From: a virus
IMG/VR virus record: IMGVR_UViG_3300036859_000973
Location: 21,102-85,101 of that record
DNA length: 64,000 nt
Direction: 5' to 3' (one strand)
Shown here: positions 45,599 to 58,399 of the stretch, one piece after another
Position numbering within the stretch: the stretch's first letter is position 1
Layout: every line of letters starts with the position of its first letter
Program-made: the position numbers and the translations under genes
The notes under the pieces: model-generated
Database searches by the model: none
Told to the model about the DNA's origin: nothing
The model's input: only the letters and a program-made list of their open reading frames with translations

Positions 45599-45673
45599 GT
45601 ACATACGTTGTCCAACAGCATCTAACCTTCTGACATTGAGTTGTGCATCAATGCACACATACGTTGTATGTAG
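45599..45673. promoter_or_regulatory. Two copies of the palindromic site family
   Basis: GTACATAC-GTT-GTCCAACA (45599-45617) and ACACATAC-GTT-GTATGTAG (45655-45673). Confidence 0.7.
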
Positions 45674-45754
45674 GAGAGCCAGGCGGCGGGTGGGGAGGGA
45701 AACGCGCTGCATTAACGCGAGAGTCCCACCCGCCGTTCCTGGGGTCATTTGGAA

Positions 45755-45910
45755 TCATCCTCTCATGGCGAGGCGCGCGCCGTGGACGGCGCGGAGTCCA
45801 TCCACCTTCAGCTTGCCACCGCTCGGACCGATGCACGGCTCATCCGGCGCCGCGTCGCAAAAGGAGCAGCGGTAACGTTGGAGATCGTGGAGCGTCGCGC
45901 GGGTGCTCAT
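45755..45910 (-). CDS. Phage zinc-finger micro-protein
   Basis: CSFCDAAPDEPC...HGAR. Confidence 0.6.
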   Translation of the reverse strand: MSTRATLHDLQRYRCSFCDAAPDEPCIGPSGGKLKVDGLRAVHGARLAMRG

Positions 45911-46251
45911 GCGCCCTCCGGCTCGATCTGCACACCCAGCTTCGCAAGCTCGCGCTCGGCGACGCGCGCGACGTCCTTGCATCTGCGAAGCTCCTTCTCT
46001 GCCGTGAGGACGTCCTCCTGGGCGCTCTTGTAGAAGGCGAGCCAGGCATCGAGCGGCGTCTCCCGGAGGTAGCCGACCCTGACCTTGCGGGCGTGGCCAG
46101 TCGCCTCTGGCCGCCCCCGATTGTCGCTCTCGTCCACCCACAGGTCGCCGCTCGGCGTCTGCTTCGCGATCAGCACGGAGAACAGCTTGGGATGGTCGCC
46201 GTAGCGACTGGACACGACGTACATGGTCCGCGGGAACGACGACGGCTCCAT
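45907..46251 (-). CDS. Hypothetical protein
   Basis: GGTGA RBS; ATGA coupling. Confidence 0.65.
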   Translation of the reverse strand: MEPSSFPRTMYVVSSRYGDHPKLFSVLIAKQTPSGDLWVDESDNRGRPEATGHARKVRVGYLRETPLDAWLAFYKSAQEDVLTAEKELRRCKDVARVAERELAKLGVQIEPEGA

Positions 46252-46256
46252 CTAGC

Positions 46257-46799
46257 TCACCACCCCGCCGCGGCTTCGCGTAGCTTGGCCAGGCCAGCGT
46301 CGCCGAGCCCGGCGCGGAGCTTGAGGGCAAGCTCCAGGCAGGTCCGATAGATGGCCTCGCCCTTGCGGCTGTCGGGATCGAAGCCGAGGTCGGCAGCCCA
46401 CTCCTCGAAGGTCGCGCAGTCCAGCACGCTCGCGTCCATGGCCAGCGACGAGAGCACGTCCAGCGGATCGGGCTTGAGCGGGCGCGTCTTGACGAAGTTG
46501 CCCATGCCACGCCACGCGAAGCCTGTTTCGCACTCCTGCTTGATGGCCTCGTGTCGGTCCACGGAGTTGGAGGCTCCAAGGCTTGGGTCCTTGTAGCTCG
46601 GCGCGTGGCCACAGCCGGCGGAGAAGTCCGTGGCCAGCACCAAGCGCCCTTCGCGCAGCACGCTCACGCGCCAGTTGAGCGACGGGTCCTTCTCGCCCGC
46701 GTTGCGCGAGCGCGACCACGGGACGAAGTCCGCCTCAACGGTCAGCCCTAGCTCGGCGACCACGGCGCGGAAGGCCTCGGCCTCGGAGCGTTCGGTCAC
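46257..46799 (-). CDS. Phage early-region hypothetical protein
   Basis: PDPLDVLSSLAMDA...TFEEWAADLGFDPDSRKG..IY..C motif, recalled from uncharacterised phage proteins. Confidence 0.7.
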   Translation of the reverse strand: MTERSEAEAFRAVVAELGLTVEADFVPWSRSRNAGEKDPSLNWRVSVLREGRLVLATDFSAGCGHAPSYKDPSLGASNSVDRHEAIKQECETGFAWRGMGNFVKTRPLKPDPLDVLSSLAMDASVLDCATFEEWAADLGFDPDSRKGEAIYRTCLELALKLRAGLGDAGLAKLREAAAGW

Positions 46800-47071
46800 A
46801 CTTTCACCCCGGCATCATTCAGCGCGGCCTCGGCGTTGCGAAGGTCCGGACCTGAATCTTGTCCTGCGAAGTTATCCTCGCACCATTGGACAAGCTCGGC
46901 CAGCGCATCGCGCAGCGCGGGCGCGGCAGCGATGAGGCGAGCGTTGGCTTCGGCTTCAGGACGCTCCGAGTAAGCCAGGGCTAGTGGTTCGTCGTCGGGG
47001 CCGACCACCTCGCAAACGTCCGGGTTCTGTTCGTTGATGCTCCACGGTCCCGGCGTCGGCTGCGCGCTCAC
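46796..47071 (-). CDS. Phage hypothetical protein (TPGPW...ANARLIAAAP family)
   Basis: Both motifs present; GTGA coupling. Confidence 0.7.
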   Translation of the reverse strand: MSAQPTPGPWSINEQNPDVCEVVGPDDEPLALAYSERPEAEANARLIAAAPALRDALAELVQWCEDNFAGQDSGPDLRNAEAALNDAGVKV

Positions 47072-47169
47072 CGCGACCGCCCCCAGGTGCAGCCCTTCGG
47101 CGCCGCATAGGCGCCGGGCTCCTCGATCTTCACGGCTTGGACCGTCCAGAGGCAGAGCTTCAGCATGGC

Positions 47170-47802
47170 TCACGCCTCCTTGTCGTCGGCCTGGGCCTTC
47201 GCCTCGATGGCCTCGGCCACGGCCAGCAGCGCGACCACGGTGCGGGCGCGGTCCTCGCGCCAGCCGCTCCCGGTACCGGGTTGGCCCAGGCCATTCCGTG
47301 CGTCCTCGAAGGCGCGCACCACGTCCTCCGCGTACGAGTGCAGCCGGTCCACAGTGTCGCGCCTGGCGCCCGCCAGGAGCATGGCCCGGCCCTCGGGCGA
47401 CGCGGCCCACCTGTTGACGGCGTTCTCCAGCGTCGGCCGCACGGCCTCCTGCGCCGCGTGCGTGCCGTTCTTGAGCCAGTCCAGGCCCTGCACCGTCCAC
47501 CATCCCGGCTCCGCCTTGATGGCCTCGGGCCCGGGCAGCTTGAGGAACCCGAACAGGCGACACTCCTTGCCGCGCACGATCCACGGCGCGGTGGTGGCCT
47601 TCTGCGCTTCCGTCGGGTTGTAGCTCGGCACGTCGGCGCACGAAACCCCGATGAAGCCGCCCGTTACCCACAGCCGCAGCGCGGGCTGCTTGGTCGCGAG
47701 GTTCGCAGGCAGCACGGCCTCCGGCATGTCGGGCACTTCGATGCGCGCCAGCTTGCGCGCGTCGGCTTCCAGTTGCTCCAGCATCTTGAGACGGTCGCTC
47801 AT
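47170..47802 (-). CDS. Hypothetical protein
   Basis: Preceded by GAGGGAAACGC leader and TATA/palindrome. Confidence 0.7.
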   Translation of the reverse strand: MSDRLKMLEQLEADARKLARIEVPDMPEAVLPANLATKQPALRLWVTGGFIGVSCADVPSYNPTEAQKATTAPWIVRGKECRLFGFLKLPGPEAIKAEPGWWTVQGLDWLKNGTHAAQEAVRPTLENAVNRWAASPEGRAMLLAGARRDTVDRLHSYAEDVVRAFEDARNGLGQPGTGSGWREDRARTVVALLAVAEAIEAKAQADDKEA

Positions 47803-47866
47803 GCGTTTCCCTCATGCCCCGGTTCCGGCGGGGCGTCCGCGCGGATCGGCTCCGCGTGGCCCTTGA

Positions 47867-47896
47867 GACTACATACACCGTATGTAGTCATAAAGG
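47867..47896 (-). promoter_or_regulatory. TATA box plus perfect 10-3-10 palindrome
   Basis: Minus strand CCTTTAT-GACTACATAC-GGT-GTATGTAGTC. Confidence 0.8.
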
Positions 47897-47909
47897 TTTG
47901 CAGCAAGGC

Positions 47910-48248
47910 CTATCGCCCCCATGGCGATGGCCGCGGCGGGGGCGGTGGCTCCGCGGTGGCGTTGCCGCTGCCGCTGACGGCGACGGGCGGAGCCGCGGCC
48001 TCGGGGCAGCCCGGAGCCCGCGCGAGCGCCGGCACCCATCGGACTTGCCATTCGCCCGTCGTCTGGTTATAGTCGTAATGATCCTCCACCATCGGGCAAC
48101 GCGGCCCGCCCATCAGCGGCAGCGCCACGCGGTTGGCGCCGACGTTGGCGCCGAGGGCGCCGTCTGCGCCGGTGAAGTCCAGCGTCACCCACGCGAAGGT
48201 GACGGTCCAGCCGACGATAAGCAGGGTCGCGATGATCGGGCTGCTCAT
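47910..48248 (-). CDS. Small membrane/secreted protein
   Basis: N-terminal hydrophobic helix; Pro-rich tail. Confidence 0.55.
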   Translation of the reverse strand: MSSPIIATLLIVGWTVTFAWVTLDFTGADGALGANVGANRVALPLMGGPRCPMVEDHYDYNQTTGEWQVRWVPALARAPGCPEAAAPPVAVSGSGNATAEPPPPPRPSPWGR

Positions 48249-48736
48249 GGCTCGGCCTCCAGGGATTCAGCGTATTGGAGGGCGTCCAGCGCCCCCATGT
48301 CGTCGTCGCCGTCCGGTTCTTCCTCGGCCACGTCGCCGCACGCGCACGTCCCGCGACCGTGGCATTTGCCCATGCACTTACGGCAGGTGCATTGCCGCCT
48401 TCCGTTCAGGCACCGCGCATCGCACCGGCCCCCGCCCTTGCCCGGCTCGGGCTCGCGGTACTTGATGAACCGCACGGGCGCCATGGCGAAGCACGCCCCG
48501 CACTGACCCCACCGGCGGTGCCCATCCGGGTCGCCCTCGCCGCTCGGCATCAGCACCACGCGGGCGGCGCTCATGCCGTCGTCGGTGTGGCCACCGTAGC
48601 GGGCCTCACGCTCGCGGCGCCGGTACGTCAGCGGGCGCACGGGCCCGTGGGCCGCGCAGTCCGCCCACGCCAGCAAGCCCCCGGGAGTGCGGAAGGGCTC
48701 ACGGTCGCGCGCGGCCAGCGTCGGGGCCCACGTCAT
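48245..48736 (-). CDS. Cys-rich hypothetical protein
   Basis: CDARCLNG..QCTC..C.GKCHG. Confidence 0.65.
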   Translation of the reverse strand: MTWAPTLAARDREPFRTPGGLLAWADCAAHGPVRPLTYRRREREARYGGHTDDGMSAARVVLMPSGEGDPDGHRRWGQCGACFAMAPVRFIKYREPEPGKGGGRCDARCLNGRRQCTCRKCMGKCHGRGTCACGDVAEEEPDGDDDMGALDALQYAESLEAEP

Positions 48737-49059
48737 GCGCCCACCGCCCCGCAAAGGTCGCACCGCTGGCCGACGCGCGCGGCGCAGCCCGGGTCCGCAT
48801 CGTGCAACAGCACGCGCCCGGCGGGCTCAGCGCGGAATAGGGCCAGCGCCGGCTCTTGGATCAGGCCCGAGTCCAGGAGCTTGTCCACAAGCTCCTGGGC
48901 CCGTTCCAGTGGCACGCCGGACACGCCTAGCTCGCCCCAGCCAAGGAACGGGCCCCACGCCGAAGGCCGCATCCCGCGGCGCCACTCGGTGTGCTTGCCG
49001 GGCTCGCCGAGCGCGATGGCGCGCAGCACGGCGCGGGCCTCGGGGTCAAGGGGTTCCAT
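48733..49059 (-). CDS. Hypothetical protein
   Basis: GGAGG RBS; ends VGA with ATGA coupling. Confidence 0.6.
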   Translation of the reverse strand: MEPLDPEARAVLRAIALGEPGKHTEWRRGMRPSAWGPFLGWGELGVSGVPLERAQELVDKLLDSGLIQEPALALFRAEPAGRVLLHDADPGCAARVGQRCDLCGAVGA

Positions 49060-50022
49060 TCAAGCACCCTCCAGGTTGAAGGCTTGGTCCGCGCCCTTGC
49101 CTTCGGCCGGGTCATCGCCGGCCCCCTCGGGCGCCGGAAGGAAGGCCTCCACGCGGCCGCGCTCGGAGGTTGTCCGCCATGCGCTTACCTCGGCGCCGGG
49201 CCAGGCCTTCTTGATCCGCGCGACGGGCGAGGGCTCGCCGGTGAGGCCGCCCCAACAGTAGCGGCCCTCTTCAAAGACGGCGGGCTTCAGCGCGGGCTGC
49301 CACGTCAGCCGGCCGCCCTCCATCCCGCGAGGGAGCAGCACGCGCACATAGCCGCGCGTGGTGCCGCCCAGCACGTCGGCGGCGATGGCCTCCAGGGCCT
49401 CGAAGCCCAGAGGCTCGCCCTCGGTATCGTCGCCACTGAGAAACGGCATGGGCGGATAGAAGGCCCCGGGCTTGTGGTCGGCGCTGTGCGAAATGCCCCG
49501 CCGGTCGCCGGTGTCCTCGCCCAGGCACTTGTAGCGCGCGCCCGTCGCCGGATCAACGGGCCCGTATTCGCCCGGCACGCTCCCCGGCGGCGGGCCGAAC
49601 CTCTTCCCGCCCAGGTACACCTGATGAAGCTCGGCGTGGGGCGCCATGCTTACCCAGAGGTGGGATGGCGCTTGCGTCCTCGGCTCAGCCGGCGCGCTCG
49701 GCACGGTCCCCGGCAGCGCAGCGCAGCGCGCGGCTTCCGTCCCGCCGATGATGCGGGGCAGCCGGCCCGCCAGGCCCGCGGCGTCGGTGCCATGCTTGGC
49801 CGCGCGCTCGGCGATGCGCTGCGCCGCGGTCGCGCCGTCCGCGCCGCCATCCCATGGCCACAGCCGCGCCCGCGCCGCGTCGGCGGTGCCCTCATAGGCC
49901 CACACCAAGCGCGCCTCGCGCTTGTAGAAGTCCAGCGCCGAGGGCGGGACGGCCTTCGCCTTGCGGTCGCGCGGCATCAGGGCCAGATAGACGATTTTCC
50001 CCAGGCGGCGCTCGCCGGTCAT
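49060..50022 (-). CDS. Hypothetical protein (320 aa)
   Basis: Long ORF with ATGA coupling. Confidence 0.65.
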   Translation of the reverse strand: MTGERRLGKIVYLALMPRDRKAKAVPPSALDFYKREARLVWAYEGTADAARARLWPWDGGADGATAAQRIAERAAKHGTDAAGLAGRLPRIIGGTEAARCAALPGTVPSAPAEPRTQAPSHLWVSMAPHAELHQVYLGGKRFGPPPGSVPGEYGPVDPATGARYKCLGEDTGDRRGISHSADHKPGAFYPPMPFLSGDDTEGEPLGFEALEAIAADVLGGTTRGYVRVLLPRGMEGGRLTWQPALKPAVFEEGRYCWGGLTGEPSPVARIKKAWPGAEVSAWRTTSERGRVEAFLPAPEGAGDDPAEGKGADQAFNLEGA

Positions 50023-50327
50023 GCCAGCACGCTCCCCGCGTCGCGCCCATCAGGCGCGGGAAGGTCCCATTCCGGGCGCAGCCGGCCGGTGAAGTCCTCG
50101 GCTTCTAGCAAGAACGGCACGCGCTGGCCCAGCGGCGTCAGCACTTCCAGCGCATCGCCGATGAACGGGCGGCCCCCGTCGCGACGGCGCGCGAGCGCGC
50201 GCAGCACCGCGCGCGCCATGGCCTCGGTGCTTGCGAACGGGCCGGGGAGCGCGCGGTCCAGCGACACGGGCTCGCCGGCCATATCCACGGTCGCGCCGCG
50301 GAGCCGGCACGGCCAGGGCTCAGACAT
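50019..50327 (-). CDS. Hypothetical protein
   Basis: Fills the gap between coupled neighbours. Confidence 0.5.
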   Translation of the reverse strand: MSEPWPCRLRGATVDMAGEPVSLDRALPGPFASTEAMARAVLRALARRRDGGRPFIGDALEVLTPLGQRVPFLLEAEDFTGRLRPEWDLPAPDGRDAGSVLA

Positions 50328-51123
50328 CGGCCGCACCCCCGCGGAAGCCGAGCGTTCCCGCCATGCCGGCGGCGTCGCCCTTGATGGCGACCACGCGCGA
50401 GCCTTCGGGCATGGCGGCGTGAATCTCGCAGGCCAGGTATTCCGTGTCGTCGCCGTCGGCGATGATGAATCCGCCGCACGGCCCGTCGCCCACGTCCTCG
50501 CCGTTGCCGTCGCGCAGCGTGAAGCCGTACACCTCGCCATGGTCCCAGGCGTTCCACAGCCCGAGGAACGTTTCAGCGTCGGCGCGGCGGGCCGCGACGG
50601 TCCGCGCGCCGATGTTCTCGGACGGCTCCTCCCAGACTAGGAACCCCTCGGCGTCCTCGGCGCCGTCGGCGATGGCCCAGGCGTCATAGGTGCGGCGCAG
50701 CGGCCACGCCAGCCCGACGCGGAGCTTTGCCATCAGCCAGCCCAGGGGCTTGAATCCCTCGGTCAGAAAGTCCGAGGGCTCCTCGGCGCGCACCTTGAAG
50801 CGGCGCTTGCCCGGCGAGTAGTGCCGGCTCCCCGTGCTTCCCGCGTGGTCGCGGTGGAGGCTATACAGCATCCATACGCCGTCGGCGTCGGCCGGCGACG
50901 TCGGCGACGGATCAATCCATAGCTCCAGCGTGAGGCTCAGCGCGCGCTCGGCCTCGGCGGCGATGGCCTCGGCGAGCTTCAGGCCCGCCGGGCTTGTCTC
51001 GCCGTTGGGGCCGACGTATGTTGAAAGCTCCAGCGGCGGGCGGAAGCTGAAGGGCTCGCCGGCCTTGGCCAGCGCCTCGGCGATGCGGCCCACGGCCGCG
51101 GGCGTCTTGACGGTTGGGCTCAT
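50320..51123 (-). CDS. Phage/plasmid early-region hypothetical protein
   Basis: W..GEVYGF...D.NG.....CGGF motif. Confidence 0.7.
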   Translation of the reverse strand: MSPTVKTPAAVGRIAEALAKAGEPFSFRPPLELSTYVGPNGETSPAGLKLAEAIAAEAERALSLTLELWIDPSPTSPADADGVWMLYSLHRDHAGSTGSRHYSPGKRRFKVRAEEPSDFLTEGFKPLGWLMAKLRVGLAWPLRRTYDAWAIADGAEDAEGFLVWEEPSENIGARTVAARRADAETFLGLWNAWDHGEVYGFTLRDGNGEDVGDGPCGGFIIADGDDTEYLACEIHAAMPEGSRVVAIKGDAAGMAGTLGFRGGAADV

Positions 51124-51488
51124 GCGCCCCACCCCCGGGCCAGCGCCTCGGCCTTCTCCCCGAGCGTCGCGCCGATGGCTTCCGCCGTGCCGGGCGGCGC
51201 CTCGGTCATGGTTTCGACCGGGCCCCACGCCATCACGTCCGGCACGTTCGACACGGCCAGGAGTGGAGCGGTCCATAGCTCGCCGCGATGCACCGCGTAG
51301 GCGGAGCCGCTGGGCGGATGGATCAGGACTTCGGCCAGCGCCATGGCCTCGTGCGCGCCGGCCAGCGCGGCCCCGGCGCAGCGGATCAGGTGGGCCTGGG
51401 CCGGGCTCGGGTTGGCGGGCGTGGCGTCGGGCGCCACGTCGCCGTTGGGCAGCGGCGCGCTGCACACCGGGCACGGGTTCGGATTCAT
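51120..51488 (-). CDS. Hypothetical protein
   Basis: CPVC N-terminus; junction motif at both ends. Confidence 0.6.
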   Translation of the reverse strand: MNPNPCPVCSAPLPNGDVAPDATPANPSPAQAHLIRCAGAALAGAHEAMALAEVLIHPPSGSAYAVHRGELWTAPLLAVSNVPDVMAWGPVETMTEAPPGTAEAIGATLGEKAEALARGWGA

Positions 51489-51679
51489 GCGCCCACCGCC
51501 AGCGCGGCGGCGCGGTACATGGCCGCGCGCTCCAGGTCCGCGGCGCCCCAGGTGCCCCACCCGTGGGCCAGCATCGCGGCCCCGGTGCGGTCCAGCACGT
51601 CCGCGAAATGTTCCAGCGTGTCCGCGTCCCAGTCCCGCACGCGCGGAGCGCGCCGGTAGGCGGCTTGAAGGAGGCTCAC
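51485..51679 (-). CDS. Small hypothetical protein
   Basis: Junction motif at both ends. Confidence 0.55.
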   Translation of the reverse strand: MSLLQAAYRRAPRVRDWDADTLEHFADVLDRTGAAMLAHGWGTWGAADLERAAMYRAAALAVGA

Positions 51680-52104
51680 GCGCCCACCCCCGCGGCAGCG
51701 GCCCGCGCACGCTCGCGCTCGCCACATACGCACAGCGACCCGTAGGCGTGCGGCCGCGCGAGGCTGCCGACGTTGCGGGACGCGATGGCCCCGCGCTTGG
51801 CCTTGTAGTCCTCGGCGCCGTTGAAGGCGGCCATGCCGGAGCGCACGCGCGCGGCGGGCGCCTTGGCATAGACCACGTTCAGGAAATGGAGGAACCCGTG
51901 AAAGCACGTCGCCGCGATGCGCGATAGCTCGCCGTCCTTGCGCTCGCGGAAGCCCACGCGCCGGTAGCGGTCGCCCACGGGCCGGAGCTTCACTTTGAAG
52001 CACGGCCCGCCGCGGCGCAGCGGGACGGGCTCCAGGTCCATGGCCACGCCGGCGGCCTTGGCCGCGGCGCGAAGCTGGGCCTCGGTCGCGCCCCACACCT
52101 TCAC
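51676..52104 (-). CDS. Hypothetical protein
   Basis: ATCFHGF...LCVC; junction motifs. Confidence 0.65.
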   Translation of the reverse strand: MKVWGATEAQLRAAAKAAGVAMDLEPVPLRRGGPCFKVKLRPVGDRYRRVGFRERKDGELSRIAATCFHGFLHFLNVVYAKAPAARVRSGMAAFNGAEDYKAKRGAIASRNVGSLARPHAYGSLCVCGERERARAAAAGVGA

Positions 52105-52319
52105 GCGCCCACCCCCGCGCGCAGCGTGCGGCCGGCGCGAAGCGCGGCGAGGGCCAGGCGCTCCCTCGCGCCGTCCATGTCCGCGCACGTCGCGGCGAAC
52201 GCCTCACGGTTCAGCGCGGCGAGCGTGGCCAGCGCGGCCAAGGCGAGGTCGCGGCCGGGGATGCGGTCTTGAGCGGGCTCCGTTGCGTGCGGGTCAAAGA
52301 CCCGTTCCAGCGATGCCAT
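52101..52319 (-). CDS. Small hypothetical protein
   Basis: GAGGGAAACGCAC-ATG leader. Confidence 0.65.
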   Translation of the reverse strand: MASLERVFDPHATEPAQDRIPGRDLALAALATLAALNREAFAATCADMDGARERLALAALRAGRTLRAGVGA

Positions 52320-52483
52320 GTGCGTTTCCCTCTTTTGCGCGCCCCGTCCAACGGGGCGGACGGGCCGGCGCGGGGGATTGAACCCCGCCCGGCCCCGGCC
52401 GCGATGGGCTCGCGGCGGGCTTAGCCCTTCAACCCTCGGCCGCGGCGCCGGGTTCGGGGCCGCGGTTCATCGGGCATGCTCGG

Positions 52484-52513
52484 GACTACATACGCTGTAT
52501 GTAGTCATTAAGG
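52484..52513 (-). promoter_or_regulatory. TATA box plus perfect 10-3-10 palindrome
   Basis: Minus strand CCTTAAT-GACTACATAC-AGC-GTATGTAGTC. Confidence 0.8.
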
Positions 52514-52520
52514 TTATTGG

Positions 52521-54059
52521 TCAAACCTGAACGTCGCCATCCTCCGAAACGGACAATTCCCCCCAGAACCCCGGAAGCTGGCCCTGGAACGTCAGCCGGT
52601 CAAGGCTGCGTGTCACGGCAACGTAGGCTATTTTGTCCTCCTGATAAATGGGAGATTCGGGCGCGCTGCGCGGGTGGGGCATATTCTCGGGCGCGAGGAT
52701 GGCGACGTGCCGCGCCTCGGCGCCCTTCGCGCGATGCACCGACGAGAAGGTGACGGCCCGCGCGTCCGCGTCCTTGGCCTCGCCATCGACCACGAGGGAG
52801 CGGATACGGTCCGCCACGTCGCGCAGCGTGCGCGCGCCCTCGGCCGCGGCCACAAGGCACGCCGCGCGGTCCTCGGCATCGGCCAGGGCGTTGGCCGCGA
52901 AGCGGTGCCGCGCGAGGCGGGCCTCTTCCGCGCTAAGCCATGCGTTGGCCGCCTCGGCCAGGTCGCTCGGCCATCGCGCGCCGTGGTCGCGCTCCAGGGT
53001 CGCCATCAGGCGAAGGAGGCCCTCGGCGAGCCCTTGCGTGCCAAGCACGCGCGCGGCCACACCGTTGCGGATCAGGCGCAGCGCGCCCTTCAGGAGCGGG
53101 GCGTTGGTGCGCGATAGCGCGAGGTCGCCGGGCGCAAGCTCGGCGAGCGGATCCGCCACCACGCGCACGCTCCCCTCGGGTGCGCCCGGCCGGGCCTCAA
53201 AGGCCGGTACAAGGCGCTGGGCGAGCTTCGCGACGCGCACCGGGCAGCGCCACGAGACGGTGAGGGGATAGTCGCGCGTGAGGCCAAGCTCCGCGGCGAG
53301 CTTATCCATGGAGTCCGACGCGGCGCCGCGCCACGCATAGATAGCTTGGTTGGGGTCGCCCACCGCGATGCACGGGCCGCCGTCGGCGAGCGCGCGCTTG
53401 GCCAGCGCGATTTGAACCGGCGCCCAGTCCTGGGCCTCATCGGCCACGATGCCGGGCCGCGGTGCAACCTCCAGGCCCTCGGCGAGCGGGAGATAGAGCA
53501 TGTCGGCGAAGTCCACGCCGTAGCGGCGCCAGTCCTGGGCATCCATGGCGCGCGTGGTCCAACCGTCCATGATGGGCGCTTCCCAACCGTTCAGGTTGAT
53601 GCCGTGAAGGTCCGCCAGGTCCCGCGCCGTGGCTGGATCCGTCGGGTCCGCGTCGGGATAGCCGGCGCGCGCCAAATCCCAGAGGCGCGCGATGGGCCCG
53701 TAGGGCGGCGGCTGCCGGCGGCGCTCCGCGATGGGTTCAAGCGTCGGGCCCCAAATGAGGCGGAGCTTCGCGAAGCGGTCCTCATGGACCGGAAGCCGGC
53801 CGCGGCCCCATGCGCGCTGCAGCGCGCCGTAGCCTAGGCTGTGCGTGGTGCGGGCTTCCACGCCGGGCGGGACCTTCCGTTGAAGGTCCGTCGCATCGCG
53901 CTTGCCGAACGCCAGATAGGCCGTGCCGGCGGGCATGCCGGCCGCGCCGCGGGATACGGTCCACGTCTTTCCGCTGCCGGCCAGGGCGATGATGCGGGCC
54001 CGCTCGCCGCGCTTCATGGCGGCCCAAATGTCCGTTTGCTGGGCCGTTGGCTCGGGCAT
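52521..54059 (-). CDS. UvrD/Rep-family SF1A helicase (compact phage type)
   Basis: ALAGSGKT, DEAQD, VGDPNQAIYAWRGA, SWRCP, SVHRAKGAE, YVAVTR. Confidence 0.93.
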   Translation of the reverse strand: MPEPTAQQTDIWAAMKRGERARIIALAGSGKTWTVSRGAAGMPAGTAYLAFGKRDATDLQRKVPPGVEARTTHSLGYGALQRAWGRGRLPVHEDRFAKLRLIWGPTLEPIAERRRQPPPYGPIARLWDLARAGYPDADPTDPATARDLADLHGINLNGWEAPIMDGWTTRAMDAQDWRRYGVDFADMLYLPLAEGLEVAPRPGIVADEAQDWAPVQIALAKRALADGGPCIAVGDPNQAIYAWRGAASDSMDKLAAELGLTRDYPLTVSWRCPVRVAKLAQRLVPAFEARPGAPEGSVRVVADPLAELAPGDLALSRTNAPLLKGALRLIRNGVAARVLGTQGLAEGLLRLMATLERDHGARWPSDLAEAANAWLSAEEARLARHRFAANALADAEDRAACLVAAAEGARTLRDVADRIRSLVVDGEAKDADARAVTFSSVHRAKGAEARHVAILAPENMPHPRSAPESPIYQEDKIAYVAVTRSLDRLTFQGQLPGFWGELSVSEDGDVQV

Positions 54060-54721
54060 CAGGCGGCCCCCACGGGCTCGGCCGGCTCGGCCTCGGCCGC
54101 GGGCCTCTGGCGCGCGCCCAGGGCCGCTAGGAGGGCTTTCAGGGCGGGGTCCGACCGTGGGGCCGGCCCACCACGCCCCGCGCGCAGCGGGGCCAGGGTG
54201 TGCGCCTTGCGCGGCCGCGCGGCGCGCCAGTCCCTCACGCGCGCATCATGGGCGGTTTCCTTGGCCAGGCCGGTCCGACCACGGCACGGCGCGCCAGGGT
54301 TCGCCCGACAGTCCCGGCACGGCACGGCCCGGGCCAGCTTGGCCACGCGCTCTAGGCGCTCCGCTTCGCGGCGCAGCCCGGCGAGGTTGCTTGGGGGCTC
54401 CATGTCCCATCGCGTGCGCGGCGGGATGGGCAAGCCCGCGCGGGCCAGGGCAGCCGGCGAGCCGGGCGCGGGCGGAGCGGCGCGCGGAAGGCGATAGGCG
54501 CGCATCATGTCCGGGCTGTGCCATGGCTCCTGCCCGGGCCAGGCTTCCCAGGCTAGGAGCGTGCGCCGGAAGGCGTCGCCCAGCGAACCGTGCCCGCCGC
54601 GGCGGATGGGTGCGCCGTGGTGGCGAGGTTCGGGCGCGCCATCGGCGCGGCTATCGTCAATCTCAAGCGCTGGCCCGCCGCGGATGGCGGCGCGGGCCTT
54701 CATGATGACGGTTCTTTCCAT
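54059..54721 (-). CDS. Hypothetical protein with phage zinc finger
   Basis: CRDCRANPGAPC...HDAR; GAGGGAAACGCAC leader. Confidence 0.65.
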   Translation of the reverse strand: MERTVIMKARAAIRGGPALEIDDSRADGAPEPRHHGAPIRRGGHGSLGDAFRRTLLAWEAWPGQEPWHSPDMMRAYRLPRAAPPAPGSPAALARAGLPIPPRTRWDMEPPSNLAGLRREAERLERVAKLARAVPCRDCRANPGAPCRGRTGLAKETAHDARVRDWRAARPRKAHTLAPLRAGRGGPAPRSDPALKALLAALGARQRPAAEAEPAEPVGAA

Positions 54722-54742
54722 GTGCGTTTCCCTCTTGTGTCT

Positions 54743-54765
54743 GACTATATACTTTGTATTTAGCG
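54743..54765 (-). promoter_or_regulatory. Degenerate copy of the palindromic site
   Basis: GACTATATAC-TTT-GTATTTAGCG upstream of ATG 54721. Confidence 0.6.
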
Positions 54766-54861
54766 TTTCTCTGGGGCGCTACGCTTAGTTGCGGGCCGGT
54801 GGCGATGGCGCGCGGCCGCTTGACGTGCACGCGGGCCGCGCGACCACGGATCGACGGCCCT

Positions 54862-55287
54862 TCAGGCCTCCGGGCTGGCCTCCGACCGCGGGACTTCGCC
54901 GGCGGCGATGGCGCGCGCCTCGCGCAGCGCGATGGCCAGGCGGTCCGCAAGCACCGAATGGGCCAGGGCCCAGCGCGCACCGGTGGCGAGCATGTCGCGC
55001 GCGTCGGCGCGCCATGCGTCGAACCCGACGGTTTGCACGTCGAAACGGCCATCGGAAAGGCGCGCGCGAATCACCACATAGCCACCGGTCGGACCGTCGG
55101 CGCGATAGAGCCGCGCCAGGTAGGTGGGTTCATCGGACGGAAGGCCAACCTCGGCCGGTCGGAGGCGCGCTTCGGCATCGGGCCGGCGGCCCGTGGCCAT
55201 GTCATGCACAGCCAGCGAAAGCACGTCGGCGCGCGCCTCGGCGCGGTTCATTCGATCCAAGGCCTCGGCGATGGTCGGTCGCGGCAT
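54862..55287 (-). CDS. Hypothetical protein
   Basis: TAATG coupling; clean ORF. Confidence 0.6.
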   Translation of the reverse strand: MPRPTIAEALDRMNRAEARADVLSLAVHDMATGRRPDAEARLRPAEVGLPSDEPTYLARLYRADGPTGGYVVIRARLSDGRFDVQTVGFDAWRADARDMLATGARWALAHSVLADRLAIALREARAIAAGEVPRSEASPEA

Positions 55288-55464
55288 TAGAAGGCCCCCA
55301 GCATGAAGGCCATGGCGACCCAGGGCGCGGCGCCCAGGGCGAGCATGGCGGTTTGCGTTGCGGACATGGCGTTTCCCTCTTTGTCGGCGCGCCTTGCGGC
55401 GCGGCGGGCTTCCCGCGATGGCGCGCGCGTCGCGCCATTTCGGGCCGTGGCCAACGGCCCATCA

Positions 55465-55929
55465 TCAGGCGAGGTTCTCAGGGTCGAAGGCGTCCATGAG
55501 GGCCGCGAAATTGTCGCCCGGGTCGCGAGAGAAAGAGTAGTCTGCGACGATTTCCTCCGGGCTGTTGCCGCGCACGAAATAGACCCAGTGCGTGGCCTTG
55601 CCGTTCGTGAAGTCGAAGCGGCCTTCATCAAGGTTGAAGAGAAGCTCCATGAGGCCCTTCTTGTCTTGGTTGGCGACGGGCTCCGGGCCCGTGTCGGCAT
55701 CCAGCCATGCCACGGGCCGCCATCCACCGGCGGCGAGGGCGTCACACAGCGCGGCCACCACGGCGCGCTCCTTGCGACCATGGGCCGTTGGGATAACGCC
55801 ATAGCGCTCGGCCATGAGCTTGTCAATCTCCAAGCTCGGCACCTTGCCGTGCGTGCCTTGCGCTACCTCGCCTTGTGTTGCCGGGCCGTCCGCTCCTGTG
55901 GTCGCGTTCGCGTCTTGGGTCTTGGTCAT
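55465..55929 (-). CDS. Phage early-region hypothetical protein
   Basis: WVYFVRGN..EEIVADYS motif; GAGGGAAAC leader. Confidence 0.7.
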   Translation of the reverse strand: MTKTQDANATTGADGPATQGEVAQGTHGKVPSLEIDKLMAERYGVIPTAHGRKERAVVAALCDALAAGGWRPVAWLDADTGPEPVANQDKKGLMELLFNLDEGRFDFTNGKATHWVYFVRGNSPEEIVADYSFSRDPGDNFAALMDAFDPENLA

Positions 55930-55965
55930 GCTAGGTTTCCCTCGGACATGCAAGGGCGCTATCTC

Positions 55966-55985
55966 CACTTATACTTTGTCCAAGC
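55966..55985 (-). promoter_or_regulatory. Hybrid copy of the palindromic site
   Basis: CACTTATAC-TTT-GTCCAAGC. Confidence 0.55.
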
Positions 55986-56038
55986 GTCCTTGGACACGTC
56001 CGGCCGTATGGGCGTCCTTGGACGCTCCGCCACGGTCC

Positions 56039-56071
56039 GCCTAGTAGGGTTCCAACGGAACCCTACTAGGC
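56039..56071. repeat. Perfect 15-bp inverted repeat with 3-nt loop
   Basis: GCCTAGTAGGGTTCC-AAC-GGAACCCTACTAGGC. Confidence 0.95.
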
Positions 56072-56285
56072 CGCGCGCCGCAGGCAAGGGCAAGGTCGCT
56101 CGGCCGCTCCCGTGGTCTTAGGCGACCGTCGGCCAAGTCTCTGGGATGGAACATCCCAGAGACGCCGGCCCGCGCGCGACGACGGGGGGTGGGGAGTATC
56201 CCCGGCCGTCGTGGCCACGGAGACGAACGGGTCCCATCCGAATGGAGTCGCTTGGGTCCCATCTGCGTGCCGCCGCGGGTCCCAT

Positions 56286-56459
56286 CTACGCCGTGCGCAG
56301 CCGCGGCGTCGCGCCGTTGTGCAGCGTCTCGAAGTGCTCCACGATCGTCGCCAACCGCAACTCGTCCCCAAATTGCGCGCCGCATAGCTCGCACACCAAT
56401 GGGCCCGGCGGCCGCCGCCTATACCATGGCGGCACCCCTCTACGATCGCGCGTCACCAT
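56286..56459 (-). CDS. C2H2 zinc-finger micro-protein (57 aa, below ORF-track cutoff)
   Basis: Hand translation MVTRDRR...CELCGAQF...EHFETLH; starts right after the upstream stop. Confidence 0.65.
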   Translation of the reverse strand: MVTRDRRGVPPWYRRRPPGPLVCELCGAQFGDELRLATIVEHFETLHNGATPRLRTA

Positions 56460-57200
56460 CTAGGCCGCCTCGACGAGGCCCTCGCGCGGCCAGCCATTCC
56501 CCGGCGTGCGCCGCAGGACCGCGAGGAACGGGTGCGCCCTGGGCCCCAAAATAGCGAAGGGCGTCGCGATGTAGCGCGGCGAGTTCTCCGCGGCCCACGT
56601 CAGGTCGCTCGCATCATCCATCCAGTACGCGACCCACGCCTCGTGCGCCGGCGCATCACAGGAGAAGCGCAGGTGGTGGTAGCGGTACGTCTGCCCGTCC
56701 AGCCAGATCACCGGGAAGCCGCCGACCGGCCGCGCCTCACACCCCGTCACATAGCACGTCGGCAGCGCCATCGAGCCAGGACTCTCGCGCATCAGCAGGC
56801 GGGTCATCGCCGGCATGACGCGCAGGCCGAAGTCCTTCCCGAGTCGCTTCGCCTCGTCGGCCACGGCTTCGACGGCCGTGAGGCGGTTCCCGAAGCCAGC
56901 GCTCTTGCGCAGCCCCTCCTGCACCAGCGCGATCAGCTTCTCGTTCCCGTGCGCCGGCTCGACGGTCACCCCCTCGACGCGCGCCATCTTCTCCTTCAGG
57001 GACGCCACGTTGTCCGAAAGCCCCGCAACAACGCCCTTCAGCGCGTGGACCTCGTCCAGGGACGGAGCAGGAGGTGGCTCCCTCGCGCGCTCCAGCGCCC
57101 CGATGCGGCGCGCCGCCTCGTCGGCCTTGACGTAGTCGTTCAGCAGTTCGCGCAGCGCGCCGTAGGTCACGACGTCGTCGTGCCGGTGCTTGTCGCCCAT
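56460..57200 (-). CDS. Coiled-coil protein with C-terminal Cys/His motif
   Basis: GGAGG RBS; CYVTGC...CDAPAH. Confidence 0.7.
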   Translation of the reverse strand: MGDKHRHDDVVTYGALRELLNDYVKADEAARRIGALERAREPPPAPSLDEVHALKGVVAGLSDNVASLKEKMARVEGVTVEPAHGNEKLIALVQEGLRKSAGFGNRLTAVEAVADEAKRLGKDFGLRVMPAMTRLLMRESPGSMALPTCYVTGCEARPVGGFPVIWLDGQTYRYHHLRFSCDAPAHEAWVAYWMDDASDLTWAAENSPRYIATPFAILGPRAHPFLAVLRRTPGNGWPREGLVEAA

Positions 57201-57693
57201 GGTGTGATGCCCTCCTCGTCGATCCTCACGCGCGCCACCGCCGCCATCGCCAGCGCCAGCCCCGCGCGTCGAGCGACTGCAGCGCCTCGCCGGCCAGCAC
57301 ATCGCGCAGCCACGGGATCGCGCCCGCGCGACGATACACGCGAGCGATCCGGCGCTTCGCGGTGATGACCGTCTCCAGCGAGCGCGGATCTGGCCGCGGC
57401 GTCATCCCCAGAATCCCCCCCACCACATGATGACGGACACGATGAGTTGCGCCGCGAACGTGACCAGGGGCGAGCGCGCCCCGAGGACGCCGATGGCGAT
57501 GAGCGCCAGAACCGCGATCCTCGGATCGAGGTTCATGGCTGCGGCCTCCGTCGAGGGGGGCTTGGCGGGAGGCGCAGGTCGGGAGGGAAGTCCGGCGTCT
57601 CGCGCGTGCCGGCGCTCTTGTGTCGGATGCCGCTGAAATCTGGACCGGCCCTCGATCGGCCCTGGCGGAACACGCGCGCCCGGAAGGACCCGC

Positions 57694-58158
57694 TCATGGC
57701 GGCGCCGCCTCCTTCCCGCTGACGCAGAAGTGTCTCGCAGACAGCGCGCCGCGTGCCTCCGTCTTGACGTTGAGGTACAGACCACAGTCGATGCACGGCA
57801 CGATCATGATCCCATTGACAAGCTCTTTCGGAACTCCCTCGGCCTTCCGGGCCCGCTCGCCCATGATGCGCGCCTCGTCCATGGCCGCGTCGCGATCGCG
57901 CTCGGCCTTCTCCAGGGCCAGGGCCAGGCCCTCCTTCACGCCGTGGGCCGCGATCACACGGGCGCCGATCATCTCGGCGGCCCGCTCCGGGTCGTCGGGC
58001 AGTCCAGTGAAGATCGCCGCGAGCGGCTTGTGCCACCGGTCGCGCTCCTCGCGCTCCCCGTCGCGGATGGCCTGCGCAACCTGCGGAACGAGGAACTCAA
58101 ACGTTGTCGTTGTTAGTATGCCCTCGCCGGCAGCGACTACGGGTTGGGTGACAGTCAT
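57694..58158 (-). CDS. Hypothetical protein with zinc motif
   Basis: CIDCG...HFC. Confidence 0.6.
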   Translation of the reverse strand: MTVTQPVVAAGEGILTTTTFEFLVPQVAQAIRDGEREERDRWHKPLAAIFTGLPDDPERAAEMIGARVIAAHGVKEGLALALEKAERDRDAAMDEARIMGERARKAEGVPKELVNGIMIVPCIDCGLYLNVKTEARGALSARHFCVSGKEAAPP

Positions 58159-58399
58159 GGCGGCAAGGGCGCGCTCCTCGGGCTTCAAGACGACACCTCC
58201 TGGAAAGCGCAGGCGCGGCCTTTCACCGCGGTCGCGAAGCTCTCGTCGAAACCGCGTATGTAGTCTTCGTGCGCTCCAGCCAGCGTGGCGCGCGATGGCG
58301 CGGGGCGGCCGGCACGCAGTTCGGCCGCGCAGATCCCGATCGTGTAGGCGCACGCCAGGCAGATGCGCCGGCCATCGTCGAGCGTGGCGATGAGGGCCT

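What the first reader, a model, noticed from the sequence alone, without database searches (positions are those of the whole stretch)
47900..56150. Compositionally distinct ~8 kb block relatively poor in TCGA/GATC: candidate first-injected host-takeover region
Seen by eye: roughly ten TCGA sites in the whole block versus more than twenty in the first ~1.2 kb of the baseplate J gene. GATC is also sparse, GC looks higher, and Leu codons appear to shift from CTC towards CTG. The block holds many small unknown ORFs, a UvrD helicase and repeated promoters. Known: first-transferred DNA of phages such as T5 and leading regions of conjugative elements avoid restriction sites and carry anti-defence genes. 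Inference: an archaeal-virus equivalent, so these ORFs are anti-defence candidates. Recent horizontal acquisition is the alternative.
Basis: partly seen in the sequence, partly recalled or inferred. Interest (0 to 1): 0.7.

Follow-up and report, generated by a model that had tools for sequence, protein, structure and literature searches.

The report
Restriction-word-purged early gene cassette in phage
A 7-kb pair of early operons in an uncultured 85-kb soil phage differs in composition from the rest of the genome and has lost three short DNA words of the kind restriction enzymes cut; this is a further example of a known phage strategy, but nothing shows that this DNA enters the cell first.

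Summary
Window 47,739-54,850 has 4 TCGA sites, against about 9 per kb elsewhere. GC is 0.73 against 0.66, and CTC/GTC codons are replaced by CTG/GTG.

After correcting for amino-acid sequence and codon usage, TCGA (4 against 16.5 expected) and GATC (11 against 24) remain depleted. A third word, CCTGC/GCAGG, is also depleted (4 against 23). All three are at expectation in the rest of the genome. Synonymous codon choice avoids these words in context (3 of 39 against 159 of 365), and one-letter neighbours of the words are not depleted. This is selection against the words, not a side effect of composition.

The island is two operons: a UvrD-type helicase, a zinc-finger protein, a conserved phage protein of unknown function and mostly orphan ORFs. 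Its tetranucleotide signature is alien (r = 0.43 against at least 0.87 for other segments). Yet it shares the genome-wide purge of 6-bp palindromes.

Best reading (0.5): an exchangeable early cassette of separate ancestry that carries a selected restriction-avoidance signature. Rival (0.3): a T5/T7-like first-entering segment. The contig is a circular assembly and only contigs were available, so ends and expression timing are untestable. No known anti-defence domain was found. The closest relatives are bacterial phages, so an archaeal host is unsupported. The scan has noted similar islands in other phages.

The parts
47739..54850 (-). Core island: desert of TCGA, MGATC and CCTGC/GCAGG, GC 0.73. 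It consists of operons B and C.
   Evidence: The union of the three words runs at 3,1,1,2,1,0,3 per kb here, against 19.8 per kb for the genome. It is the only such desert in 85 kb.
54722..54861 (-). Right edge of the desert: intergenic promoter-like region of operon B, with an AT-rich TATATAG element followed by the leader motif GAGGGAAACGCAC-ATG.
   Evidence: TCGA density returns to normal from 54,851.
54059..54721 (-). 220-aa protein with a phage zinc-finger domain (Phage_zn_bind_8). First gene of operon B.
   Evidence: PF24623, E 3.7e-6, above the cut-off. (phrog_2080). A second protein with this domain lies outside the island at 59,450-59,992.
52521..54059 (-). 512-aa SF1 UvrD/Rep/PcrA-type DNA helicase of the short phage type.
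   Evidence: UvrD-helicase, AAA_19 and UvrD_C above their cut-offs. (phrog_1967, E 3e-64). (PDB Rep, UvrD, PcrA). The best homologue among 5.8 billion proteins is only 37% identical. Walker A and B and later motifs fall on invariant columns of alignment A1.
52320..52520 (-). Promoter/operator region of operon C: TTAATGA, then the palindrome GACTACATAC-N4-GTATGTAGTC, a long GC-rich leader, then the GAGGGAAACGC leader motif.
   Evidence: repeat D8, 52,479-52,515..
47910..52319 (-). Operon C, ten ORFs. 52,101-52,319 (72 aa). 51,676-52,104 (142 aa, basic, orphan). 51,485-51,640 (51 aa). 51,120-51,467 (115 aa). 50,320-51,123 (267 aa, conserved phage family of unknown function). 50,019-50,282 (87 aa). 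49,060-50,022 (320 aa, orphan, modelled as disordered). 48,733-49,059 (108 aa). 48,245-48,763 (172 aa, Cys-rich). 47,910-48,248 (112 aa, N-terminal hydrophobic helix).
   Evidence: Gene calls by codon statistics. Orphan status. The 267-aa family: 181 representatives at E<=1e-3, model pLDDT 83.8, matches only to uncharacterised phage proteins. Starts of some ORFs are uncertain.
47803..47909 (-). Left edge of the island: second copy of the TTTATGA + palindrome element (86% identical over 37 nt to the copy at 52,479-52,515) and the leader motif. It drives the next, unpurged operon, which starts at 47,802.
54862..55929 (-). Shoulder (operon A). 55,465-55,929 (154 aa, phrog_4158). 55,287-55,367 (26-aa hydrophobic ORF with the leader motif). 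54,862-55,287 (141 aa, island-like Ala/Arg-rich composition but a normal TCGA density).
   Evidence: It holds six TCGA sites in 1.1 kb, so composition and purge are decoupled here.
55930..56285 (.). Repeat- and hairpin-rich noncoding region upstream of operon A, 1.1 kb beyond the edge of the desert.
   Evidence: Sequence read: a 14-15-bp perfect hairpin, GATGGGACCC three times, and TCCAAGGAC/TTGGAC half-sites.

Best explanation
The block is a mosaic early-gene cassette in the leftward (minus-strand) early and replication arm of an uncultured, probably bacterial, contractile-tailed soil phage. It consists of two complete operons. One holds a zinc-finger protein and a UvrD-type helicase. The other holds ten small ORFs, mostly orphans.

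Its ancestry differs from the rest of the genome, most likely through recombination with another phage of the same host pool. Conserved promoter/operator elements at its edges may have acted as recombination linkers.

The cassette's DNA has been rewritten by selection to avoid three short words: TCGA, GATC preceded by A or C (MGATC), and CCTGC/GCAGG. These behave like targets of sequence-specific nucleases. The rest of the genome keeps them at expected frequency and avoids only 6-bp palindromes.

Shown: the purge, its word- and context-specificity, the alien composition, and the shared 6-mer avoidance. Inferred: that nucleases are the selective agent, that the cassette arrived by recombination, and when and where the selection acted (in the donor, or here because these operons must work before the phage is protected).
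For: 1. Word-specific purge. Core genes have TCGA 4 against 16.5, GATC 11 against 24 and CCTGC/GCAGG 4 against 23.1 expected. The rest of the genome has 619 against 618, 511 against 464 and 216 against 198.
2. Context-specific synonymous choice. Leu/Val/Ile/Phe codons before GAN end in C in 3 of 39 cases, against 159 of 365 elsewhere in the core (Fisher p 3.7e-6). In the rest it is 534 of 739 against 3,085 of 4,443, not significant. Codons before ATC end in G in 6 of 43 cases against 864 of 2,111 (p 2e-4), and the rest shows no difference.
3. The component trinucleotides TCG, CGA, GAT and ATC are at expectation. None of the 24 one-letter neighbours has z below -2.6, and CATC, TATC, TCGC and CCGA are raised.
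4. Separate ancestry. The tetranucleotide signature of the core correlates at r = 0.43 with the remainder. The 18 overlapping 7-kb segments that lie clear of the island give 0.87-0.94. The GC rise lies in codon positions 1 and 2 (Ala, Arg, Gly, Pro up; Ile, Val, Lys, Asn, Ser, Thr down), while GC3 is not higher. Codon usage differs even where no word is at stake.
5. Same host pool. Eight 6-bp palindromes that do not contain TCGA and that the rest of the genome lacks occur once in the island, against 12.4-12.6 expected (Markov) or 11.9 (shuffle).
6. The island's edges coincide with promoter/operator repeats that also occur elsewhere in the genome.
7. The genes with families are phage-type: phrog_1967, phrog_6186, Phage_zn_bind_8.
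8. It is not an assembly chimera. One Logan contig of 84,812 nt covers the region, and a second soil sample holds identical pieces of the island and of both flanks.
Against: - No donor was found, and no second copy of the cassette. None of the other block ORFs occurs next to helicase relatives in 80 metagenome loci. None occurs next to relatives of the 267-aa protein in 8 loci.
- No relative of this phage exists in the collections searched, so presence or absence of the cassette in kin cannot be checked.
- A donor from the same host pool with a genome-wide purge of 4-mers is hard to square with the recipient's 600+ TCGA sites, unless the purge is position-specific.
- The gene at 54,862-55,287 has island-like composition but is not purged.
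- The purge covers short words only in a short segment, while the whole genome avoids 6-mers. This two-tier pattern is what the rival leading-region model predicts.
- Codon usage already drifts towards the island's pattern along the whole 43.7-64 kb early arm, so part of the codon difference may reflect gene class rather than ancestry.
Confidence: 0.5

Rival explanations
1. In-situ leading region. The island is the DNA that is exposed to host nucleases first, either because it enters first as in T5/BF23 and T7-like phages or because it is the first part used. It must therefore be free of short restriction targets. A product of the island then protects the remaining DNA, which needs to avoid only some 6-bp sites.
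For: - Two-tier pattern: 4-5-bp words are purged only in 7 kb, while 6-bp palindromes are purged genome-wide.
- The purge's edges are operon edges.
- The island lies in the early arm among small ORFs.
- None of 115 called proteins matches a DNA methyltransferase family in Pfam. Self-methylation that Pfam can see therefore does not explain why the remainder tolerates 619 TCGA and 511 GATC sites.
- A repeat-rich noncoding region lies nearby. In T5 and BF23 a repeat-rich noncoding region marks the border of the first-step-transfer DNA, and restriction works only on sites inside that DNA (PMC10644984, passages read). In Autographiviridae, motifs in the leading region decide sensitivity (PMC12455610, abstract read).
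- Earlier notes of this scan describe similar purged early islands in other phages. These are unchecked leads, not support.
Against: - No physical end is known (circular assembly; contigs only).
- About 8 kb of unpurged leftward genes (56-64 kb) lie upstream of the island.
- Operon A, between the repeat-rich region and the island, carries six TCGA sites. An end at about 56 kb would therefore put unpurged DNA first.
- In the second sample, island pieces have depth 5.4-5.9 against 4.4-8.9 for flank pieces. There is no sign of a collapsed terminal repeat, though this is weak evidence at low depth.
- The model does not explain the alien amino-acid make-up, codon usage and signature.
- No known anti-restriction domain was found.
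Confidence: 0.3
2. A by-product without selection on words. The block is weakly constrained, partly non-coding or mis-called DNA drifting to GC-rich composition, and TCGA/GATC fall simply because Ile, Val, NTC codons and AT-rich codons are rarer.
For: - About a third of the raw deficit is compositional. With the rest's codon usage the block's proteins would give 33.5 TCGA, and with their own usage 22.4.
- Two of two ORFs tested are orphans, and one of them has a model with pLDDT 0.30.
- By the Markov test alone, the GATC deficit is not significant (11 against 17.5).
Against: - Depletion persists after keeping proteins and codon usage fixed.
- It persists in the annotation-free Markov test for TCGA (4 against 15.8).
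- It is context-specific and word-specific.
- Other orphan-rich early stretches (41-47.9 kb and 56-64 kb) show no deficit: TCGA 81 against 83.9, GATC 90 against 79.2.
- Third-position GC periodicity supports the called frames.
Confidence: 0.07
3. An assembly chimera: a piece of another, higher-GC genome joined into the contig.
For: The sharp change in composition. The source is a metagenome assembly.
Against: - A second assembler (Logan) gives one 84,812-nt contig with 0 differences over 44,001-64,000. It breaks only at the 38-bp inverted repeat near 37.0-37.2 kb.
- A second soil sample from another study holds identical pieces inside the island, across its right edge (54,082-54,908) and in both flanks, at similar depth.
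- The island shares the genome's operator palindrome, leader motif and 6-mer avoidance.
Confidence: 0.03

Closest known systems
First-step-transfer (pre-early) DNA of T5, BF23 and other Tequintavirus
   Same: A block of a few kb (about 8% of the genome) of small, mostly unknown early genes. Restriction targets matter in it, while the rest of the genome carries many sites. A repeat-rich noncoding stretch lies nearby. Source: PMC10644984, passages read.
   Different: In T5 and BF23 the region lies in a ~10-kb terminal direct repeat at a mapped physical end, and two-step entry is shown by experiment. Here no end is known and no terminal repeat is seen. Unpurged genes lie between the repeat-rich region and the island. 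The island is also alien in composition. No homology to T5 pre-early genes was found with the family libraries used.
Leading (first-injected) region of Autographiviridae, T7-like phages
   Same: A variable early region in which the presence or absence of a restriction motif decides sensitivity, even though the motif occurs elsewhere in the genome. Source: PMC12455610, abstract read.
   Different: Those are ~40-kb podoviruses with defined ends and early genes at the leading end. This is an 85-kb phage with a sheath-like protein and unknown ends. No Ocr-like protein was detected.
Mosaic gene modules of tailed phages exchanged at conserved intergenic boundary sequences (modular evolution of lambdoid and other phages; recalled, no paper read here)
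   Same: A discrete block bounded by promoter/operator repeats. Its composition, codon usage and oligonucleotide signature differ from the neighbours. Its genes are of phage type.
   Different: No donor or alternative allele of the module was found, so the exchange is inferred from composition only.
Leading regions of conjugative plasmids, rich in anti-defence genes (recalled, no paper read here)
   Same: The idea that first-entering DNA carries counter-defence genes and avoids targets.
   Different: That is a different kind of element, transferred as single-stranded DNA. No homologous genes were seen here.

Membership tests
T5-type first-step-transfer / phage leading region | Lies at the physical end of the virion DNA that enters the cell first | not testable with these tools
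   The contig has identical 127-bp ends, which marks a circular assembly. Both runs are kept as contigs only, so no read starts or ends can be seen.
T5-type first-step-transfer / phage leading region | Lacks restriction targets that are common in the rest of the genome | tested here: met
   TCGA 4 against 16.5, MGATC 1 against 18.8, CCTGC/GCAGG 4 against 23.1 in the core. TCGA, GATC and CCTGC/GCAGG are at expectation in the rest, as are the two 5-mer halves of MGATC (CGATC/GATCG and AGATC/GATCT, O/E 1.04 and 1.14). That these words are real enzyme targets in the host is inferred.
T5-type first-step-transfer / phage leading region | Encodes host-takeover or anti-restriction functions that protect the later DNA | tested here: inconclusive
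   No known anti-defence domain in Pfam, PHROGs or NCBIfam. One conserved protein has no PDB fold match above noise. Most ORFs are orphans, so nothing is excluded.
T5-type first-step-transfer / phage leading region | Transcribed first, from promoters read by the unmodified host polymerase | not testable with these tools
   No RNA run is listed. Promoter-like elements exist, but they carry the same operator palindrome as other operons. No sigma-70 consensus match was found on the coding strand.
T5-type first-step-transfer / phage leading region | Bordered by a long repeat-rich noncoding injection-stop region | tested here: inconclusive
   A 355-bp repeat- and hairpin-rich region lies at 55,930-56,285. 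It is 1.1 kb beyond the edge of the purge, with unpurged genes in between.
Horizontally acquired mosaic module | Oligonucleotide signature, amino-acid make-up and codon usage deviate from the host replicon | tested here: met
   r = 0.43 against 0.87-0.94. GC1 and GC2 are raised while GC3 is not. CTC, GTC, TAC and CAG usage is shifted.
Horizontally acquired mosaic module | A donor, or the same module in another genomic context, can be shown | tested here: not met
   No synteny was found in 80 + 8 + 2 loci.
Horizontally acquired mosaic module | Absent or replaced in close relatives of the recipient | not testable with these tools
   No relatives of this phage were found in the phage records, in IMG/VR or in the scan's other windows.
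SF1 UvrD/Rep/PcrA helicases (the 512-aa protein) | UvrD-helicase N-terminal and C-terminal domains above Pfam's cut-offs | tested here: met
   PF00580 49.8 bits (cut-off 23), PF13245 31.8 (25.1), PF13361 29.3 (25.6). PDB matches to Rep, UvrD and PcrA.
SF1 UvrD/Rep/PcrA helicases (the 512-aa protein) | Walker A (GSGKT), Walker B (DEAQD) and later SF1 motifs intact | tested here: met
   Invariant columns G28, K31, D207, E208, Q210, D211, G234, D235, R244, R271, H442, K445, G446 and R484 in alignment A1 of 15 sequences. The motif names are recalled.

The most novel reading that the evidence does not exclude
The island is the first-exposed segment of a phage lineage with no known relatives. Among its orphan ORFs it encodes a new, general anti-restriction function that shields the other 78 kb. 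The remainder carries more than 600 TCGA and 500 GATC sites, and no DNA methyltransferase family was detected. The three purged words would then report the specificities of the host's nucleases, including an MGATC-type and a CCTGC-type activity.
Probability: 0.25. Interest if true: 0.6.

Novelty: new member of a known kind. Interest (0 to 1): 0.4.

Why it matters
The rule that restriction-site location, not just site number, decides phage sensitivity is known for T5-like and T7-like coliphages. Finding the same two-tier pattern in an unrelated, uncultured, high-GC soil phage suggests the strategy is widespread. Here 6-bp palindromes are purged everywhere and 4-5-bp words only in one 7-kb early cassette.

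Such islands can be found from sequence alone. They point to the few genes worth testing for new counter-defence functions, and to the specificities of the unknown host's nucleases.

The case is also a caution. The island is compositionally alien, so a purge can travel with a mobile cassette and need not mark a genome end.

Tried and rejected
- Donor or synteny search. DNA of 40,000-64,000 against phage records: no match. Helicase, sheath-like protein and two flank genes against IMG/VR: no relatives. Helicase profile against JGI metagenomes: 80 loci kept of 177 relatives, and tblastn of all 117 called proteins found only the helicase (80 of 80 loci) and one unrelated gene (2 loci). Family of the 267-aa protein: 1 locus in GTDB genomes and 7 in IMG/VR, with no other block gene beside it.
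- Annotated regions of Pseudomonas phage PaMx25 and Xanthomonas phage FoX4: only the query genes are shared.
- Terminus and expression. No RNA holder is listed. Both DNA holders are Logan contigs, so no starts, ends or depth profile can be read. The many short 'joints' at 85% likeness have sides of 20-25 nt and are treated as noise from other organisms.
- Function. Pfam, PHROGs and NCBIfam give no named function for block ORFs apart from the helicase and the zinc finger. The fold of the 267-aa protein has no PDB match by Foldseek. The best VIA-align Z is 5.6, to actin-like or RNase-H-like halves, which is within noise. BFVD matches are uncharacterised phage proteins. The Atlas gives no usable hit for the 320-aa ORF.
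- No tRNA genes in the window.
- No sigma-70 consensus promoter on the coding strand and no intrinsic terminator.
- Host domain. Sheath-like and 'MCM-like' proteins have no tblastn hit in phage records. The terminase-like protein has only weak hits to bacterial phage terminases.
- Rejected: a GA/TC-step or TCG/CGA-level explanation.
- Rejected: GATC loss as a side effect of TCGA loss. GATC not overlapping TCGA is 11 against 22.2.
- Supplementary files of the two papers were not opened.

Full report
WHAT THE RECORD IS.
The window is bases 21,102-85,101 of a single 85,101-bp contig that the tools treat as a virus record. Its first and last 127 bases are identical, which is the mark of a circular assembly. 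The record therefore gives no physical end.

Codon-statistics gene calling gives a rightward virion arm and a leftward arm.
- The rightward arm (genome about 5-44 kb) holds a portal, an S49 protease, a sheath-like protein and baseplate parts.
- The leftward arm (window 23.6-64 kb) holds a nuclease-like gene with an intein, a terminase-like protein, a uracil-DNA glycosylase, an SNF2 helicase with an intein, and many small ORFs.

The block under study lies in the middle of the leftward arm, and all its genes are on the minus strand.

- Window 47,900-56,150 has exactly 10 TCGA and 13 GATC sites. The rest of the window has 9.1 and 8.0 per kb.
- The core desert, 47,739-54,850, has 4 TCGA sites. The four largest TCGA gaps and the four largest GATC gaps of the window all lie in the block.
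- GC is 0.726 against 0.662.
- CTC falls from 0.55 to 0.26 of Leu codons and GTC from 0.57 to 0.28 of Val codons, while CTG and GTG rise.
- The GC rise sits in codon positions 1 and 2. There is more Ala, Arg, Gly and Pro, and less Ile, Val, Lys, Asn, Ser and Thr. GC3 is not higher, and A/T-ending two-fold codons are more frequent.

THE DEPLETION IS SELECTION ON WORDS, NOT COMPOSITION.
Shuffle test. I shuffled synonymous codons among positions, keeping every protein sequence and the codon usage of the set.
- The 12 core genes have TCGA 4 against 16.4-16.8 and GATC 11 against 24.0-24.3.
- The remaining 103 genes have 619 against 618 and 511 against 464-472.
- The other early-arm genes (41-47.9 kb and 56-64 kb) show nothing: 81 against 83.9 and 90 against 79.2.
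- In 29 consecutive bins of about 700 codons, only the three core bins have both words low.

Annotation-free test. A maximal-order Markov expectation gives TCGA 4 against 15.8 for 48,001-54,000. For GATC it gives 11 against 17.5, which is weak.

Mechanism in codon choice.
- In the core, Leu/Val/Ile/Phe codons that precede Asp or Glu end in C in 3 of 39 cases, against 159 of 365 elsewhere (p 3.7e-6).
- Codons preceding ATC end in G in 6 of 43 cases, against 864 of 2,111 (p 2e-4).
- The rest of the genome shows neither effect.

Specificity.
- The trinucleotides TCG, CGA, GAT and ATC are at expectation. No one-letter neighbour of either word is depleted beyond z -2.6, and several are raised.
- GATC loss is not a side effect of TCGA loss (11 against 22.2 for non-overlapping sites).
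- GATC loss is confined to GATC preceded by A or C on either strand (1 against 18.8). KGATCM survives (10 against 5.3). The numbers are small.
- A strand-symmetric 5-mer scan found a third core-only word, CCTGC/GCAGG: 4 against 23.1 (z -4.7), with the rest at 216 against 198.

Extent. The union of the three words runs at 19.8 per kb over the genome. It runs at 3,1,1,2,1,0,3 per kb in 47.9-54.9 kb, the only such desert in 85 kb. CCTGC was discovered in the core itself, so that scan only delimits the island and does not test it.

ANATOMY.
The desert equals two operons.
- Operon B runs from a promoter-like region at 54,722-54,861. It holds a 220-aa protein with the phage zinc-finger domain PF24623 and the 512-aa helicase.
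- Operon C runs from 52,320-52,520 through ten ORFs to 47,910.

Operon C and the next, unpurged operon (which starts at 47,802) are each preceded by an AT-rich TTAATGA or TTTATGA element followed by the palindrome GACTACATAC-N4-GTATGTAGTC. The two copies are 86% identical over 37 nt. Related copies stand before genes at 30.7, 35.4 and 45.7 kb and in the virion arm.

A leader motif, GAGGGAAACGC just before the ATG, occurs six times, all between 45.5 and 56 kb.

The shoulder at 54,862-55,929 (operon A) has six TCGA sites. One of its genes, at 54,862-55,287, has island-like Ala/Arg-rich composition, so composition and purge are not strictly coupled. A 355-bp repeat- and hairpin-rich noncoding region follows at 55,930-56,285.

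GENES.
- Helicase. It is an intact SF1 UvrD/Rep/PcrA-type enzyme of the short phage kind (phrog_1967, E 3e-64; PDB Rep, UvrD, PcrA; motifs on invariant columns). Its best homologue among 5.8 billion proteins is 37% identical. Named relatives are in phages of Pseudomonas, Xanthomonas, Sphingomonas, Vibrio and others. In PaMx25 it sits among DNA-metabolism genes.
- 267-aa protein. It belongs to a widespread phage family of unknown function: 181 representatives at E<=1e-3, a confident model with pLDDT 83.8, no PDB fold above noise, and BFVD matches to uncharacterised proteins, including some from actinophages.
- Orphans. The 320-aa and 142-aa ORFs match only themselves. The Atlas model of the former is disordered.
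- Known anti-defence functions. No block ORF matches a known anti-restriction or anti-defence family. Among 115 called proteins, Pfam finds 19 families, with no DNA methyltransferase and no integrase.

ANCESTRY.
- The core's tetranucleotide signature correlates at r = 0.43 with the remainder. Every 7-kb segment clear of the island gives 0.87-0.94. After second-order Markov normalisation the figures are 0.29 against 0.62-0.80.
- Codon-context z-scores correlate 0.41 between core and rest.

This, with the amino-acid and codon shifts, argues for a separate history.

The island nevertheless shares the genome's striking avoidance of 6-bp palindromes.
- In the rest of the genome's genes, CTCGAG is 0 against 54 expected, GAGCTC 0 against 46, GTCGAC 0 against 41.5, CGTACG 1 against 23, CACGTG 0 against 17, CAGCTG 0 against 13, CTGCAG 1 against 17 and ACGCGT 1 against 17.5.
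- In the island, the eight such words that do not contain TCGA occur once, against 11.9 (shuffle) or 12.4-12.6 (Markov) expected.
- The island does not share the rest's milder deficit of CCGG (84 against 88.5; rest O/E 0.80). It also holds 2 GGATCC sites (1.2 expected), against 2 observed and 13.7 expected in the genes of the rest.

So the cassette has lived under the same 6-cutter pressure as the rest, either here for a long time or in a donor phage of the same host pool.

NOT AN ARTEFACT.
Logan's assembly of the likely source run gives one 84,812-nt contig identical over 44,001-64,000. By my arithmetic on the coordinates, its ends fall at the 38-bp inverted repeat near 37.0-37.2 kb. A second soil sample from another study holds identical pieces of the island (48,569-50,340; 51,318-52,322; 54,082-54,908) and of both flanks, with one base difference in 20 kb.

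HOST.
The archaeal reading is not supported.
- The sample is labelled a soil metagenome.
- Asp+Glu is about 13% and Lys about 4%, which is not halophile-like.
- GGAGG-like motifs precede 57 of 117 called genes.
- The native flank gene at 46,257-46,799 is 43% identical to a protein of Xylella phage Sano and 40% to one of Xanthomonas phage FoX4.
- The 'MCM-like' protein of a sister note has no MCM match.

The AT-rich boxes 30-37 nt upstream of several start codons would also fit archaeal promoters, so the host domain is not proven. The evidence leans bacterial.

INTERPRETATION.
Two readings survive, and they do not exclude each other.
(a) Legacy. The cassette came by recombination from another phage of the same host pool, perhaps through the shared promoter/operator elements at its edges, and brought its word purge with it.
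(b) Position. These operons are exposed to host nucleases before the phage is protected. This matches T5 and BF23, where restriction acts only on sites in the first-step-transfer DNA (PMC10644984, passages read), and T7-like phages (PMC12455610, abstract read).

- For (a): the alien signature, amino-acid make-up and codon usage, which (b) does not explain.
- For (b): the two-tier pattern (short words purged only in a short segment), operon-exact edges, no methyltransferase family detected to explain the remainder's tolerance, and the difficulty of a same-host donor that is purged genome-wide while this phage keeps 600 sites.
- Against (b): about 8 kb of unpurged leftward genes and the unpurged operon A lie upstream, no end is known, and depth in the second sample gives no hint of a terminal repeat.

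I put (a) at 0.5, (b) at 0.3, a composition by-product at 0.07 and a chimera at 0.03. The remainder is for causes not thought of.

COMPARISON AND NOVELTY.
The closest known system by working logic is the T5/BF23 first-step-transfer region. Membership cannot be claimed, because its defining feature, a mapped first-entering end, is untestable here. The mosaic-module reading lacks a demonstrated donor.

Earlier notes of this scan report similar word-purged early islands in at least five other phage genomes. They are unchecked AI notes that I use only as leads, and they mean this is a further member of a kind the scan has already met. New here are the combination with an alien composition, the genome-wide 6-mer purge around it, and the MGATC and CCTGC specificities.

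Noticed in passing
whole genome (window 1-64,000 and genome 1-21,101): Extreme genome-wide avoidance of 6-bp palindromes in coding DNA. Observed against expected: CTCGAG 0/54, GAGCTC 0/46, GTCGAC 0/41.5, CACGTG 0/17, CAGCTG 0/13, GATATC 0/11.5, TTCGAA 0/9.4, GAATTC 0/7.3, CGTACG 1/23, ACGCGT 1/17.5, CTGCAG 1/17, GGATCC 2/13.7. CCGG is also low (O/E 0.80)..
   Followed up: partly
window 45,550-56,000: The leader motif GAGGGAAACGC immediately before the ATG occurs six times on the minus strand (45,568, 47,805, 52,324, 54,726, 55,371, 55,935) and nowhere else in that orientation. It marks operon starts in and beside the island.
   Followed up: partly
window 55,287-55,367 (-): A 26-codon hydrophobic ORF (starting MSATQTAM...) with the same leader motif. 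It was not called by the gene finder. It may be a small membrane peptide.
   Followed up: no
window 38,343-41,177 (-) and 23,837-25,702 (-): Two intein-bearing genes: an SNF2-type helicase with Hint + LAGLIDADG, and a 621-aa ORF with Hint + LAGLIDADG. A free-standing LAGLIDADG-like ORF lies at genome 15,134-16,039.
   Followed up: no
window 36,968-37,189: Logan's 84,812-nt contig of the source run begins and ends at the 38-bp perfect inverted repeat noted by a sister finding. This is an assembly break at the repeat, not evidence of a genome end (my arithmetic on its coordinates).
   Followed up: partly
window 35,470-36,843 (-): The protein that a sister note calls 'MCM-like' has no MCM match in Pfam (only a weak MarR-type wHTH at the C-terminus) and none among PDB sequences.
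   Followed up: partly
window 30,779-32,527 (-) and genome 6,448-8,223 (+): The only terminase-like protein (phrog_38, Terminase_6C just below its cut-off) lies on the leftward arm. The large protein at the head of the virion arm is instead a HerA/DUF87-type ATPase.
   Followed up: no
window 46,257-46,799 (-): This native early gene (phrog_4273) is 43% identical to a protein of Xylella phage Sano and 40% to one of Xanthomonas phage FoX4. It also matches Pseudomonas myoviruses of 84-88 kb. It is the best clue that the host is bacterial.
   Followed up: partly
whole genome: CCCC/GGGG and CCC/GGG are strongly under-represented relative to synonymous shuffles, both in the island and in the rest (O/E about 0.5-0.7). 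This is a general codon-context bias.
   Followed up: no
window 33,802-34,350 (-): A uracil-DNA glycosylase superfamily protein (PF03167, E 3e-25). It is one of the few named functions on the leftward arm.
   Followed up: no
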